Shown: piece after piece, positions 3,019 through 8,011 of the stretch | Layout: each line of letters starts with the position of its first letter | How positions within the stretch are numbered: the stretch's first letter is position 1 | Origin: a virus | Lineage: Duplodnaviria; Heunggongvirae; Uroviricota; Caudoviricetes | Virus record (IMG/VR): IMGVR_UViG_2872698443_000003 | Length of the DNA: 20,548 nt | Direction: 5' to 3' (one strand) | Translations under genes and position numbers: made by a program | The notes under the pieces: model-generated | What the model was told of the DNA's origin: nothing | Database searches by the model: none | Seen by the model: the letters and a program-made list of their open reading frames with translations, nothing else

Positions 3019-3577
3019 GGTTAACCTCCTGCGGCGGCTCTGGTAGCGGCATCCAGTGTGACGGCTCACATACCCCCTCAACACCATTCATGTAAAAGAA
3101 TTGAAATAACCCTTTACCTTTGTGAAACCCTACCATCTGCTCTTTTGTGTCTGAACAATAAACCAAAACATCTTCTTCGTTTGGCATTCGCTCACTACAG
3201 CTTATCCAACTATCCGGAGTTACCGGAGAGTTGCCCGATAGCTGGTTCAACTTGTAAGTTTGGCTTACAGGTTCGGCTTTCAGTTCTGCTATGCGCTTTT
3301 TTGCTGTTTCCAGCTCATCCAGCAGCGCCAAGACGGTAGCCGGATTGGCTGCGGCGATGAATTCAGCATTGGCCTGCTGTTCCATTTGGAAATCTTCATC
3401 GAAGCCGCTTTCAGGATGCGCTCCTTCAATTCTGCAAATGGGAAGATATCCAACAACGTCACGATGAATTAGCGCATCACCAGCATCAAGCCTCTCCTCT
3501 CCATATTCTAGCGACCACACACCACACGTTGCTTTCTCTGCCGCCTCACGCAGTGCCTGATAGTCAATCTTGCTCAC
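3011..3577 (-). CDS. Ead/Ea22-like N-terminus plus DUF551-like C-terminus, lambdoid early accessory protein, 188 aa
   Basis: Track ORF; N-terminus [24 protein letters not shown]... and C-terminal WISCSERMP...HWMPLPEPP resemble Ea22/DUF551 proteins (recalled family features). Confidence 0.6.
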   Translation of the reverse strand: MSKIDYQALREAAEKATCGVWSLEYGEERLDAGDALIHRDVVGYLPICRIEGAHPESGFDEDFQMEQQANAEFIAAANPATVLALLDELETAKKRIAELKAEPVSQTYKLNQLSGNSPVTPDSWISCSERMPNEEDVLVYCSDTKEQMVGFHKGKGLFQFFYMNGVEGVCEPSHWMPLPEPPQEVNRG

Positions 3578-4056: not shown

Positions 4057-4217
4057 TTCTTCCCACTCCGCCACATTGCATTCAGATATTTGTTGTCATT
4101 AACAGAACCGAAACTATTTCTCTTAAGCAATTCCTCTCTCGATGGCATTGGCTTTACGCGTTGGCGAATAATCATTTCTGCCGGAAGAATGCCGGGATTG
4201 TATGCAAGTCCTCTCAT
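4053..4217 (-). CDS. Small hypothetical protein, 54 aa ([54 protein letters not shown])
   Basis: Manual translation; ATGA overlaps at both ends (4214-4217 and 4053-4056); GGAGAG upstream. Confidence 0.4.
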
Positions 4218-4504
4218 GATTTACTCTCCACGAACTGGTCAACGGCCATGCTAAGTGACACACCTAAAGTATCGATATGCTGCTGAATATCCTGTAGCGT
4301 CCGCGCTTGAGATAACAGAATTTCACGGTTGCATAACTCTTTAACCAGATGCTCAAACTTGCTGTAATAACCGATACGGCTTAGTGTTTCTTTCCCTGCA
4401 TTCTCACCTTCTTTGATAATTCCTCTTTCGCTAAGAATCAGGTCGTGTTTGGTTCCGGTAATAACGTATTTGCCGAGGTCGATGTTTAGCTTCATTGTTT
4501 TCAT
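4214..4504 (-). CDS. Hypothetical protein, 96 aa from ATG 4504 (track ORF 4214..4657 has a longer, overlapping start)
   Basis: ATG 4504 preceded by GAGGAA at about 8 nt and lies 10 nt after the upstream stop. Confidence 0.5.
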
Positions 4505-4514
4505 TGTTAATTCC

Positions 4515-4811
4515 TCAGTCATTACTGATAGCGCCATAGCGTGAGCGGTAATTACGCAGGCGCGGGTCGATATATTCAGGGAAGTGGGTATATGTGGCTT
4601 TGCGGAATGGTCGGATTGATGTCTGGTAAATTCGCTCTCGTTCTTCTTTCTCTGCAAGCCATATACAGTGGCGAAATTCCTTTTCTTCTTTCGTTTCCTG
4701 CGGTAGCGACATTATCCGGTCGTAGTTTTTCCTGAATTTATCCAGCACCTCCGATACGGAATTGCCGGAACAGCGGCGCGCGTCGTCCGCACCATACAGA
4801 GGCGCTGGCAT
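4515..4811 (-). CDS. Hypothetical basic protein, 98 aa
   Basis: Track ORF; AGGAG 6 nt upstream of ATG 4811. Confidence 0.55.
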   Translation of the reverse strand: MPAPLYGADDARRCSGNSVSEVLDKFRKNYDRIMSLPQETKEEKEFRHCIWLAEKEERERIYQTSIRPFRKATYTHFPEYIDPRLRNYRSRYGAISND

Positions 4812-4824
4812 GATTTTCTCCTGA

Positions 4825-5340
4825 TTAAATTGCGTGAATAGCGTGACGAGGGAAGGGGAGGGTTACTGGCGCAAAAGGTATATCGTCGTCAAACTCCATA
4901 GGTGGTTCGCTGTGATTTACCTGCTTCTGAGGCTGCTGTTTTTGTTGCTGACCGTTATTTCGCTGAGGTGAAGACTGTTCATTGCTTCCTTGCTTGCCAC
5001 CAAGCATTTGCATGGTTCCACCAACGCCCACGATAACTTCGGTAGTGAACCGATCCTGTCCGCTTTGATCCTGCCATTTTCTTGTCCGCAATTTTCCTTC
5101 AAGATAAACCTCAGAGCCTTTTCGCAGATATTCGCTGGCAATTTCTGCCAGTTTCCCGCTCATTACCACACGGTGCCACTCCGTCTGCTCCTTTTGCTCT
5201 CCAGTTTGCTTATCACGCCATTGTTCTGACGTAGCAACTATAAGGTTTGCAAATGCCGTTCCTGATGGTGAATATCTGATTTCTGGATCATGCCCAAGGC
5301 GACCAATAATGATCACCTTATTTACGCCTCTACTTCCCAT
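4825..5340 (-). CDS. ssb: Phage single-stranded DNA-binding protein with a 15-residue extension after the canonical DDDIPF tail, 171 aa
   Basis: N-terminal OB-fold region closely matches E. coli SSB as recalled ([51 protein letters not shown]...[10 protein letters not shown]); C-terminus reads ...[24 protein letters not shown]. Confidence 0.88.
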
Positions 5341-6048
5341 TTATGCCGCCTGTTTTAGTTCGTTAACTCTGATGTTCATTACCTGAACGCATTTAGCCTG
5401 CGCATCCTCATTGCCAGCCATTAATTGCCAGTCATGCTGATAACGTTCTATGAGTTTTTTCTTGTCAGTTTCTGTTGATGCATAATCGCTGAAGTCTTTC
5501 AGGATTTGTTCGCAGTCAACCGATGGAGATTTCTGGTTGGTATTTTCTGGTGATGGTTTGTTATCTGATGCTGGGATTGCCCAGCCCGGCAGCGATGGAG
5601 GGAGCCAGTAAAATCCTGTTCCATCCTTCAGTTTTGCCCTGTGCCACCCCTGCTTTTTATCGGGAGATGTTTGTGCGAAACCTTCCTCAAGGTTATACAG
5701 ATACCGACCGATTCCCCACTGAACGGCAGCGCGCTTCATTGCACCGGAACGACCACCTTTGACGGCTTCTACCTGCGTGTTTTCAGCAGCATCCCATTTG
5801 GTTACCCATTCGGAATCAATCTTTATTGATATGCCGCATTCAACGCCGCCGTTGTTGGGAATATCGCGGTATTCATTGCGCCATCCTGCTTTGCCACAAA
5901 CATCGTCAAGGCGTTTCATGATTGCCCGGTTCGTAACATAAGCCAGCACCATAGCCCACACCTTGCCATCGCGTGTTTTACCGCTTTGCTGTATTCGCCA
6001 TTCGATATCTTCAGGGCAGAATGGCTCATCGAATTTGTTCAAATCCAT
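5341..6048 (-). CDS. Rad52/Sak-type single-strand annealing recombinase, 235 aa
   Basis: Track ORF directly upstream of and abutting ssb; motifs resembling the Rad52/22 family (recalled, not searched). Confidence 0.55.
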   Translation of the reverse strand: MDLNKFDEPFCPEDIEWRIQQSGKTRDGKVWAMVLAYVTNRAIMKRLDDVCGKAGWRNEYRDIPNNGGVECGISIKIDSEWVTKWDAAENTQVEAVKGGRSGAMKRAAVQWGIGRYLYNLEEGFAQTSPDKKQGWHRAKLKDGTGFYWLPPSLPGWAIPASDNKPSPENTNQKSPSVDCEQILKDFSDYASTETDKKKLIERYQHDWQLMAGNEDAQAKCVQVMNIRVNELKQAA

Positions 6049-7901: not shown

Positions 7902-8011
7902 CTGGATTCTCCTGTCAGTTAGCTTTGAGTAACGCGCCGTGATGCTTATCTCCACGGTTGCTGTCTTGCAGCTGCATTTCGCGCTACTCAAAGCCTTCTG
8001 CTTTGAATGCT

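What the first reader, a model, noticed from the sequence alone, without database searches (positions are those of the whole stretch)
4825..4899. Phage SSB with a 15-residue extension past the DDDIPF tip
In canonical SSB the C-terminal ...DDDIPF is the docking site for partner proteins and needs the free terminal Phe. Here the codon after Phe is GCG rather than a stop, and the ORF continues as [15 protein letters not shown] until TAA at 4825, ending 13 nt before the next gene's start codon. An extension like this would be expected to mask the tip, which could be a way to sequester or redirect host SSB partners, or it may be a recent stop-codon loss.
Basis: partly seen in the sequence, partly recalled or inferred. 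Interest (0 to 1): 0.55.

Follow-up and report, generated by a model that had tools for sequence, protein, structure and literature searches.

The report
Conserved cap on phage SSB tip
This phage's single-stranded-DNA-binding protein carries 15 extra residues after the normally terminal docking peptide; the same conserved extension occurs on at least four SSB types in phages of enteric bacteria, so it is a real and apparently undescribed feature that probably blocks the usual host-partner docking.

Summary
The minus-strand ORF 5340..4825 is a 171-aa SSB ending ...[24 protein letters not shown].

It is not a sequencing error or a recent stop-codon loss. The same 15-residue extension follows the tip in 134 of 150 protein clusters related to this SSB. 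It is always exactly 15 residues, with consensus [AS]P[VI][GT]L[PQ][FY]P[RK]H.[IV][HY].[IL]-COOH. It also occurs on three other SSB cores. All credible genome hits are in Enterobacterales, and 460 of 5426 complete E. coli genomes carry this stretch.

Synonymous codons vary freely while the residues are kept (pN/pS 0.37), and the DNA holds no promoter, terminator or RNA structure. Selection therefore acts on the peptide.

In Sf6-like relatives an HNH homing endonuclease gene sits exactly between the Phe and Ala codons. It gives SSB a stop after IPF and reads into the cap codons itself. This explains the "uncapped" relatives.

Published work shows that one extra glycine on E. coli SSB abolishes chi and DnaG binding, so masking of the tip is well grounded but untested here. 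What the conserved cap binds is unknown. I found no literature on it.

The parts
4825..5340 (-). ssb gene: 171-aa phage SSB plus stop codon
   Evidence: ORF list. Pfam PF00436 at E=1.4e-37. 59% identity to E. coli SSB, with the alignment ending at F156. Annotated as SSB in phage ECP1.
5026..5325 (-). OB-fold ssDNA-binding domain (residues 6-105)
   Evidence: Pfam match covers residues 6-105. AlphaFold2 models strands 8-103 with block pLDDT 66-86. pN/pS 0.19.
4909..5025 (-). Q/P-rich disordered linker (residues 106-144)
   Evidence: pLDDT below 50 from residue 106 onward. Variable in length and sequence in alignment A1. pN/pS 0.53.
4873..4908 (-). Canonical acidic SSB tip [12 protein letters not shown] (residues 145-156); here internal, not C-terminal
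   Evidence: Sequence. P155 and F156 are invariant in A1. pN/pS 0.12 among capped genes.
4828..4872 (-). 15-residue cap [15 protein letters not shown] (residues 157-171), the extension in the finding
   Evidence: Conserved motif of fixed length, with L5 and H10 invariant in 51 distinct tails. Codon table shows synonymous variation. pN/pS 0.37 and pS 0.73.
4872..4873 (-). Tip|cap boundary: the point where an HNH homing endonuclease gene is inserted in Sf6, N7, IME10, CurroJimenez and Huey. This window carries the HEG-free allele.
   Evidence: HEG+ alleles read ..CCN TTY [TAA/TAG ... HNH ... GAC GAG] GCA/GAA CCA GTA.. Four alleles keep the Ala codon.
4825..4827 (-). TAA stop of ssb, 13 nt before the abc2 start
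5341..6048 (-). Upstream Rad52-like single-strand annealing protein (context)
   Evidence: Pfam PF04098 at E=5.6e-25.
4515..4811 (-). Downstream abc2 anti-RecBCD gene (context)
   Evidence: Pfam PF11043 at E=4.1e-61.

Best explanation
The extension is a genuine, evolutionarily conserved 15-residue C-terminal 'cap' carried by many SSBs of phages and prophages of Enterobacterales. It is a disordered linear peptide. It turns the canonical ...DDDIPF-COOH tip into an internal sequence and gives the protein a new hydrophobic C-terminus (...H-x-I-[H/Y]-x-[I/L]-COOH). Shown here: the cap exists, it is under protein-level purifying selection, it travels together with the tip between unrelated SSB cores, and it is independent of the neighbouring recombinase and of abc2. 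Inferred from published work on E. coli SSB+Gly: while the cap is attached, the Phe carboxylate is not free, so the phage SSB should not dock into the SSB-Ct pockets of host proteins such as chi, DnaG and, by analogy, Exo I, RecQ and PriA. Further inference: one extra residue would be enough to block docking, yet 15 specific residues are conserved, so the cap is most likely itself a docking peptide. Its partner would be host-encoded or universal among these phages, because the flanking phage genes differ. This would divert phage-SSB-coated ssDNA, the substrate of the adjacent annealing protein, away from host nucleases and helicases. The relatives whose SSB stops after IPF mostly result from an HNH homing endonuclease gene inserted exactly at the tip|cap boundary. 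That gene supplies a stop codon for SSB and uses the cap codons as its own 3' end.
For: Spread and fixed length:
- 115 of 120 and 19 of 30 related protein clusters end tip + 15 residues. One E. coli cluster has 1030 members.
- 25 of 25 hits of a degenerate DNA pattern in species-representative genomes are tip + cap. All are Enterobacterales apart from one record labelled Chryseobacterium, which is probably mislabelled.
- 460 of 5426 complete E. coli genomes carry this stretch (cap plus flanking ssb and abc2 sequence).

Selection on the peptide:
- The codon table shows synonymous changes at most cap positions between E. coli, Klebsiella, Proteus, Providencia, Tatumella and a metagenomic phage.
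- pN/pS is 0.37 for the cap, 0.53 for the linker and 0.19 for the OB fold. Synonymous divergence in the cap (0.73) equals that of the rest of the gene.
- The cap DNA has no promoter, terminator, Rfam hit or RNA structure (z = +1.27).

Modularity:
- The cap occurs on a host-like PF00436 core, a divergent PF00436 core, a core with no Pfam hit in RecT-gp157-SSB modules of ~48-kb phages (22 of 85 clusters), and a ~245-aa PHROG 743 SSB.
- Capped SSBs follow Rad52-like, ERF or RecT+YqaJ genes, with or without abc2.

Disorder:
- AlphaFold2 gives pLDDT below 50 for residues 106-171.

Masking precedent:
- E. coli SSB+Gly has no measurable affinity for chi (PMC3045619) or for DnaG (PMC3632105).

HEG origin of uncapped alleles:
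-.
Against: There is no biochemical or genetic test of the cap, and no partner has been identified. The tip under the cap is still strongly conserved (pN/pS 0.12; [IV]PF kept in essentially all capped proteins; one IMG/VR allele reads TPF). That is unexpected if the tip were permanently useless. It fits better with a composite tip+cap motif, a tip function that needs no free carboxylate, or removal of the cap. Uncapped alleles exist in the same gene neighbourhoods and in cultured phages such as Sf6, N7 and IME10, so the cap is dispensable for growth. SSB+Gly still complements an ssb deletion, with slow growth, so loss of pocket docking is not absolute in vivo. The cap's pN/pS is higher than that of the tip or the OB fold.
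Confidence: 0.6

Rival explanations
1. Recent stop-codon loss or sequencing error: an ordinary SSB whose stop after Phe was lost, reading into non-coding DNA.
For: The open frame of 15 codons is not improbable by chance. Close relatives such as Sf6, S135 and Huey do stop right after IPF.
Against: Identical sequence occurs in independent records. The extension is present with the same length and motif across Enterobacterales and on four SSB cores. Synonymous substitutions occur while the residues are preserved.
Confidence: 0.01
2. Deletion scar: the tail belongs natively to the HNH endonuclease gene found between ssb and abc2 in Sf6-like phages, and an in-frame deletion of that gene fused its last 14 codons to ssb.
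For: The HNH proteins of Sf6, CurroJimenez and Huey end ...[18 protein letters not shown], identical to the cap. One cluster (P0104) combines the HEG-linked tip DDSDIPF with a cap, as expected after precise HEG loss or recombination.
Against: HNH homologues elsewhere end about 15 residues earlier. The nearest, Pectobacterium phage DU_PP_IV, ends ...DPVY* where Sf6 has ...KPIY. PHROG 2340 covers only HNH residues 1-143, and tblastn alignments mostly end at residues 134-143. Caps occur in Proteus, Providencia, Tatumella and ~48-kb phages that have no such HNH nearby. Four HNH alleles retain the SSB Ala codon at the junction (..PDE-A-PVTL). Two different HNH N-terminal halves share the same junction.
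Confidence: 0.03
3. The 45 nt are conserved as DNA or RNA (a homing-endonuclease target, a translational-coupling signal or a regulatory signal for the downstream gene), and the peptide is an irrelevant by-product.
For: Within E. coli phages the 45 nt are nearly identical (63 of 80 IMG/VR copies share one sequence). A homing endonuclease does act at this spot.
Against: Between genera most third positions differ while the residues are kept, and synonymous divergence in the cap equals the gene average. Downstream genes differ (abc2, an exonuclease, unknown ORFs). No promoter, terminator or stable RNA fold was found. The cap always ends in frame after exactly 15 codons.
Confidence: 0.04
4. Pro-peptide: the cap is a removable blocking group. 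A host or phage protease cuts after Phe156 and releases a canonical DDDIPF-COOH tip at the right time or place.
For: This explains why the tip, including IPF, stays under strong purifying selection beneath the cap (pN/pS 0.12). It also explains why the junction residues F|AP and the cap length are so constant.
Against: No protease is known for this. No precedent exists for SSB. Nothing in the neighbourhood encodes a candidate that is always present. A conserved Pro at P2' is not a typical cleavage context.
Confidence: 0.12
5. Degron: the hydrophobic/His-rich C-terminus targets the phage SSB to a host protease (ClpXP or Lon type C-terminal tags) to limit its level.
For: Only a resemblance recalled from memory. 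C-terminal degrons end in small or hydrophobic residues (ssrA ...LAA, MuA ...KKAI, SulA ...NLYH), and the cap ends ...HAIHAI or ...HAIYVI with an invariant hydrophobic last residue.
Against: Conservation extends over all 15 residues, including the N-terminal AP[VI][GT]L[PQ][FY] part, which is longer than known C-terminal tags.
Confidence: 0.1

Closest known systems
Bacterial SSB (E. coli type, PF00436) with the C-terminal SSB-Ct tip DDDIPF
   Same: Same OB fold (59% identity overall to E. coli SSB), same disordered Q/P-rich linker, and the same acidic tip sequence EPPM[DE]FDDDIPF.
   Different: The tip is not at the C-terminus. Fifteen conserved residues follow the Phe, so the free alpha-carboxylate used by all characterised SSB-Ct binding pockets is absent.
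Engineered E. coli SSB+Gly (Naue et al., PMC3045619 and PMC3632105)
   Same: An SSB whose terminal Phe is followed by extra residue(s). In vitro it loses binding to chi and DnaG.
   Different: SSB+Gly is a laboratory construct with one arbitrary residue. Here nature maintains a specific 15-residue peptide, which implies a function beyond mere blocking.
Phage SSBs whose own C-terminal tail recruits the cognate recombinase (HK620 SSB NDYPPF with Sak4, PMC5928155; T7 gp2.5 acidic tail)
   Same: A phage-encoded SSB placed next to a single-strand annealing protein, with a C-terminal peptide as the interaction code.
   Different: Those tails are still acidic and end in a free Phe.
Free-standing HNH homing endonuclease genes (PHROG 2340; I-KsaII-like) inserted in conserved phage genes
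   Same: The Sf6 gp26 type gene shows presence/absence polymorphism between near-identical flanks. It sits at the most conserved DNA of the target gene, and linked target-site changes are seen (tip DDSDIPF in all 34 HEG+ alleles). Homologues lie next to ssb in Vibrio phages.
   Different: It is not present in this window, which carries the empty allele. Unusually, the HNH ORF has no stop of its own and borrows the last 14-15 codons of the host gene.

Membership tests
Bacterial/phage homotetrameric SSB (PF00436) | OB-fold ssDNA-binding domain matching the family profile | tested here: met
   PF00436 at E=1.4e-37 over residues 6-105. TIGR00621 at 179 bits against a cutoff of 54. PDB SSBs match at E=1e-63. 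The AF2 model shows the strands and helix of the OB fold.
Bacterial/phage homotetrameric SSB (PF00436) | Disordered linker followed by an acidic tip ...D-F-D-D-D-I-P-F | tested here: met
   Residues 106-144 have low pLDDT and are Q/P-rich. Residues 145-156 read [12 protein letters not shown].
Bacterial/phage homotetrameric SSB (PF00436) | The tip Phe is the C-terminal residue (free alpha-carboxylate for SSB-Ct pockets) | tested here: not met
   Fifteen residues follow F156. All SSB profiles and E. coli SSB end at residue 156.
Bacterial/phage homotetrameric SSB (PF00436) | Tetramer formation and ssDNA binding | not testable with these tools
   Inferred only from the close similarity of the OB domain to E. 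coli SSB (59% identity over the whole protein).
Capped phage SSB (group proposed here) | Exactly 15 residues after [IV]PF matching [AS]P[VIFL][GT]L[PQ][FYH]xxHx[IVM][HY]x[IL]-COOH | tested here: met
   The window cap [15 protein letters not shown] fits every position.
Remnant of an HNH homing endonuclease gene (Sf6 gp26 type, PHROG 2340) | Tail sequence native to the HNH family | tested here: not met
   The family profile and nearest homologues end before the tail. The tail occurs where no HNH gene is present.
Beta-clamp-binding motif (QL[SD]LF / QLxLxL) | Hydrophobic-x-L-x-aromatic/hydrophobic hexapeptide, usually starting with Gln, that binds the clamp cleft | tested here: inconclusive
   P[VI][GT]L[PQ][FY] has the x-hydrophobic-x-L-x-aromatic spacing, but the Gln position is an invariant Pro. 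The comparison with Hda QLSLPL and Pol III alpha QVELEF is from memory. No binding or complex prediction was possible.

The most novel reading that the evidence does not exclude
The cap is a second, phage-specific 'SSB-Ct code'. It is a portable 15-residue docking peptide that phages of Enterobacterales append to otherwise host-like or unrelated SSBs. It switches off recruitment of host SSB-interacting proteins (Exo I, RecQ, RecJ, chi, DnaG, PriA) and at the same time recruits a different, still unknown partner. That partner could be the beta clamp, via the P-hydrophobic-x-L-x-aromatic element, or a protease or other factor that regulates uncapping. Homing endonucleases targeting the tip|cap junction toggle phages between capped and uncapped states.
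Probability: 0.4. Interest if true: 0.8.

Novelty: new variant of a known kind. Interest (0 to 1): 0.62.

Why it matters
The free C-terminal Phe of SSB is treated as a near-universal rule for how bacterial genome-maintenance proteins find ssDNA, and it is being pursued as an antibiotic target and a recombineering design rule. A large natural family of phage SSBs keeps the tip but buries it under a conserved cap. These SSBs are present in about 8% of complete E. coli genomes and in cultured phages such as ECP1, HK75, mEpX2 and CP-1639. They would provide a natural experiment on what the tip does when it cannot dock. They may point to a new interaction partner or regulatory step. They also have practical consequences for choosing phage SSB/annealase pairs for recombineering and for understanding how phage SSBs are told apart from host SSB. 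The tests are simple: peptide binding, C-terminal mass spectrometry, and a stop codon placed after Phe156. The homing-endonuclease polymorphism at the tip|cap junction is also a clean example of a mobile gene borrowing its host gene's 3' end.

Tried and rejected
- Sequencing error or stop-codon loss: rejected, because identical and homologous copies exist everywhere.
- Tail native to the HNH gene (deletion scar): rejected on HNH family ends, the PDE-A junctions and the taxonomic spread.
- DNA/RNA-level element: no promoter, terminator, Rfam hit or stable fold, and normal synonymous divergence.
- Folded add-on domain: AlphaFold2 with a 49-sequence alignment leaves residues 106-171 disordered. 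I therefore ran no fold search.
- Link to one recombinase or to abc2: rejected, because capped SSBs follow Rad52-like, ERF and RecT/YqaJ genes, with or without abc2.
- The same motif on other proteins: a six-frame regex scan of 1.24 Mb of held loci found it only after SSB tips, after the inserted HNH, and in one rearranged copy.
- Resemblance to solved structures: no PDB chain matches the cap.
- Literature: searches for the peptide, for C-terminal extensions of phage or prophage SSBs, and papers on defence systems that sense phage SSB (Retron-Eco8, DARNA, Hna) found nothing on this cap.
- phmmer of the last 34 residues against 1.84 billion representatives returned only 11 hits, mostly fragments, because full-length capped SSBs are merged into clusters represented by other SSBs. 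It was useful only for revealing other SSB cores.

Full report
**1. The observation**

On the minus strand an ORF runs from ATG 5340 to TAA 4827-4825 and encodes 171 residues.
- Residues 6-105 match Pfam SSB PF00436 at E=1.4e-37.
- The protein is 59% identical to E. coli SSB, and that alignment ends at Phe156 = E. coli Phe178, the host protein's last residue.
- NCBIfam SSB profiles also end at residue 156.
- After the Phe codon (4875-4873) comes GCG, and the frame continues as [15 protein letters not shown] to the stop.
- Thirteen nt separate the stop from the ATG of abc2 at 4811. Pfam Anti-RecBCD_p2 matches abc2 at E=4e-61.
- The upstream gene (6048..5341) is a Rad52-like annealing protein.

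The stretch is 100% identical to Escherichia phage ECP1 and to an E. coli chromosome. It is therefore not a local sequencing error.

**2. The extension is common, of fixed length and conserved**

A protein search with the SSB returned 120 clusters, of which 115 end tip + 15 residues. They come from E. coli (one cluster with 1030 members), Klebsiella, Citrobacter, Enterobacter and Salmonella.

A second search from the most divergent hit added Phytobacter, Tatumella, Providencia and Proteus. Of its 30 new clusters, 19 are capped.

The extension is always exactly 15 residues.
- Consensus: [AS]-P-[VI]-[GT]-L-[PQ]-[FYH]-[PS]-[RK]-H-x-[IV]-[HY]-x-[IL]-COOH.
- Leu5 and His10 are invariant in 51 distinct tails.

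A degenerate DNA pattern for tip + cap, scanned over one genome per bacterial and archaeal species, gave 25 hits.
- Every hit is preceded by an acidic ...D-D-[IV]PF tip.
- All lie in Enterobacterales: Providencia, Proteus, Moellerella, Tatumella, Pantoea, a Symbiopectobacterium plasmid, Buttiauxella, Kluyvera, Lelliottia, Atlantibacter, Trabulsiella, Apirhabdus, Citrobacter, Enterobacter, Pseudescherichia and Escherichia.
- One further record is labelled Chryseobacterium and is probably mislabelled.

In complete E. coli genomes, 460 of 5426 carry this stretch, that is, the cap with its flanking ssb and abc2 sequence.

**3. Selection acts on the peptide, not on the DNA**

A codon table for seven divergent capped genes shows synonymous differences at most cap positions while the residues are kept. 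Examples are Ala GCG/GCA/GCC/GCT, Pro CCA/CCT/CCG, Leu CTC/CTG/CTT, Arg CGT/CGC and His CAC/CAT.

Nei-Gojobori proportions pooled over all pairs:

| Region | pN/pS |
|---|---|
| OB fold | 0.19 |
| Linker | 0.53 |
| Tip | 0.12 |
| Cap | 0.37 |

- Synonymous divergence in the cap is 0.73, against 0.78 in the OB fold, so there is no extra DNA-level constraint.
- Synonymous sites are near saturation, so these ratios are compressed.
- The cap DNA has no promoter-like or terminator-like site on its strand, no Rfam match, and no RNA structure beyond shuffled controls (z = +1.27).
- The downstream gene varies: abc2, a 3'-5' exonuclease, or unknown ORFs.

**4. The cap is a module that goes with SSB tips, not with one SSB core or one partner gene**

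Capped SSBs lie in several gene neighbourhoods:
- Directly after Rad52-like genes in E. coli, Klebsiella, Tatumella and a metagenomic phage.
- After an ERF gene in Proteus.
- After RecT + YqaJ in Providencia.
- abc2 is often absent.

A phmmer search with the last 34 residues against 1.84 billion representatives found the tip + cap on other cores. In all, at least four distinct SSB cores carry the same 15-residue cap:
- **Host-like PF00436 core:** the one in this window.
- **P0161 type:** no Pfam hit, PHROG 44 only. It sits in RecT - Sipho_Gp157 - SSB modules of ~48-kb phages, and 22 of its 85 clusters are capped with ...DDIPF-APFGLQYSSHAIHSL-like tails.
- **PHROG 743 type:** a ~245-aa SSB.
- **Divergent PF00436 core:** 153 aa, starting 'MAINIITISGNVGKD'.

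In 1.24 Mb of fetched loci the motif occurs only after SSB tips (112 times), after the inserted HNH gene described below (26 times), and in one rearranged copy.

AlphaFold2 with a 49-sequence alignment models the OB fold but leaves residues 106-171 at pLDDT below 50. The cap therefore behaves as a short linear motif in a disordered tail. No PDB chain resembles it.

**5. Why some close relatives stop after IPF: a homing endonuclease at the tip|cap boundary**

In Sf6, N7, IME10, CurroJimenez and Huey the SSB ends ...IPF*. It is followed by an HNH endonuclease gene whose product ends ...[22 protein letters not shown], which is the cap.

The tail is not native to that HNH family:
- The nearest homologue, Pectobacterium phage DU_PP_IV, ends ...DPVY* where Sf6 has ...KPIY.
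- PHROG 2340 covers only HNH residues 1-143.
- tblastn alignments to more than 500 phage homologues mostly end at residues 134-143. These homologues include the intron-encoded I-KsaII of Staphylococcus phages.

The junction fixes the insertion point:
- Four HNH alleles still carry the SSB Ala codon at the junction (...YPDE-A-PVTL).
- This places the insertion exactly between the Phe and Ala codons, window 4873|4872.
- The element brings a stop codon for SSB, a short spacer and an HNH ORF without its own stop.

Frequencies in a less biased sample:
- I chose the 80 nearest IMG/VR relatives by OB domain alone.
- 43 are capped, and 34 are uncapped with the HNH + cap downstream.
- 2 are uncapped with no cap within 900 nt, and 1 is truncated.
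- All 34 HEG-bearing alleles carry an altered tip, DDSDIPF, as expected for a target-site change that protects against self-cleavage.

Other observations:
- Homologous HNH genes also sit beside ssb in Vibrio phages.
- In one of these, D288, the tip-coding sequence is interrupted.
- Uncapped alleles without any HNH gene also exist. L149 lacks precisely the 45 nt, in the same SSB - exonuclease arrangement as capped phages.

The window therefore holds the HEG-free, capped allele. The direction of change is capped gene to HEG insertion, not the reverse.

**6. How it most likely works**

Shown here:
- The cap is a conserved, selected, portable C-terminal peptide.
- The tip beneath it is also still conserved.

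Established elsewhere:
- All characterised SSB-Ct pockets hold the terminal Phe side chain and its alpha-carboxylate.
- E. coli SSB with one extra Gly has no measurable affinity for chi (PMC3045619).
- The same construct does not bind DnaG (PMC3632105). It still complements, with slow growth.

Inference:
- While the cap is attached, this SSB should not dock into host SSB-Ct pockets.
- ssDNA coated by it, the substrate of the neighbouring annealing protein, would then not recruit Exo I, RecQ, RecJ, PriA or chi in the normal way.
- One residue is enough to block docking, yet 15 specific residues with an invariant hydrophobic C-terminus are maintained. The cap probably also binds something.
- The flanking phage genes vary, and the cap is confined to phages of Enterobacterales. 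The partner is therefore more likely a host protein, or the SSB/ssDNA complex itself, than a particular phage recombinase.

Sub-hypotheses I could not test:
- A clamp-binding-like element. P[VI][GT]L[PQ][FY] has the spacing of QLxLxL-type motifs but lacks the Gln. This is recalled from memory.
- A removable pro-peptide. This would explain the conserved tip and the constant F|AP junction.
- A C-terminal degron.

A precedent for a phage SSB tail acting as the code for its partner is HK620 SSB, whose last six residues are needed to stimulate Sak4 (PMC5928155).

**7. Comparison with known families, and novelty**

The protein is an SSB by fold, linker and tip. It fails one defining feature of the canonical family, the free terminal Phe.

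I found no paper that mentions the cap. Database annotation calls these proteins plain SSB. The only trace is a note in the Sf6 record that gene 26 shares 14 contiguous residues with an 'E. coli SSB'.

I rate it a new variant of a known kind. It is common in sequence data but apparently unrecognised. It is of real interest to SSB and phage-recombination specialists because it contradicts the expectation of a free tip and is easy to test.

My confidence by claim:

| Claim | Confidence |
|---|---|
| The cap is a genuine, selected feature | about 0.9 |
| It blocks canonical docking | about 0.75 |
| It is a docking motif for a distinct partner | about 0.4-0.5 |

Noticed in passing
L008 (Vibrio phage D288, OZ195845.1) about 1081-1120, with the HNH gene at 1189-1626: The ssb gene ends ...DFDDDRS*, and the next bases read GAC ATC CCG TTC TAA (DIPF*). 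A 9-nt insert, CGGTCTTAG, splits the tip-coding sequence. An HNH homologue (53% identical to Sf6 gp26) lies just downstream. This looks like a homing-site disruption that truncates the SSB tip.
   Followed up: partly
L002 (Sf6) 2044-2523 versus L010 (Huey) 1338-1805: Two HNH genes with unrelated N-terminal halves (MKICSRCHQQ... versus MITCKKCGEN...) share the same C-terminal half and the same junction with the ssb cap. This suggests recombination within the endonuclease gene at this site.
   Followed up: no
IMG/VR loci L153-L232; L002 about 2010-2034: Every HEG-bearing allele (34 of 34) has the tip DDSDIPF, with an extra Ser codon, and different codon usage (GATATTCCGTTC, host-ssb-like) from HEG-free alleles (GATATACCTTTT). 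This is probably a co-converted immunity polymorphism. One protein cluster (P0104) combines DDSDIPF with a cap.
   Followed up: partly
L009 (Salmonella phage S135) 1388-1885; L012 (103203_sal5) 2194-2586: A different HNH_3/NUMOD-type endonuclease gene follows ssb in Salmonella phages. Homology to the window breaks exactly after the Phe codon (query position 528 = window 4873). The end of the tip is therefore a recurrent mosaic and insertion boundary.
   Followed up: partly
P0152 (120 aa, from the representative search): A chimeric ORF joins an Ead/Ea22-like N-terminus to the SSB linker + tip + cap. This is probably a rearranged prophage remnant.
   Followed up: no
L256 (CACSKA010000001.1, labelled Chryseobacterium sp. 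18061) 3149-3202: An 800-kb contig labelled Chryseobacterium carries an enterobacterial-type capped SSB identical in its tail to the E. coli form. The assembly is probably mislabelled or contaminated.
   Followed up: no
L254 (Symbiopectobacterium purcellii plasmid, CP189880.1) 7927-7980: A capped SSB (...DFEDDIPFAPITLPFPNHAIHAL) lies on a 147-kb plasmid, so the cap is not confined to integrated prophages or phage genomes. Eight of the E. coli matches were also on plasmids.
   Followed up: no
window 1-20548: Only the ssb region is identical to ECP1. The rest of the window is a mosaic of lambdoid/P22-like early regions (best matches vB_EcoP-720R6, N7, HK633 and Sf101 at 96-98% over 31-46% of the window). 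Phage homology starts near 1839-2171, next to an integrase, which suggests an integrated prophage.
   Followed up: partly
window 4214-4657 (- strand): The mechanical ORF (TTG start) overlaps the 3' end of abc2 by about 140 nt and has a weak DUF5405 match (E=1.9e-4). In ECP1 this stretch is annotated as two shorter genes (a DUF2737 protein and a hypothetical protein), so the long ORF is probably not the real gene model.
   Followed up: no
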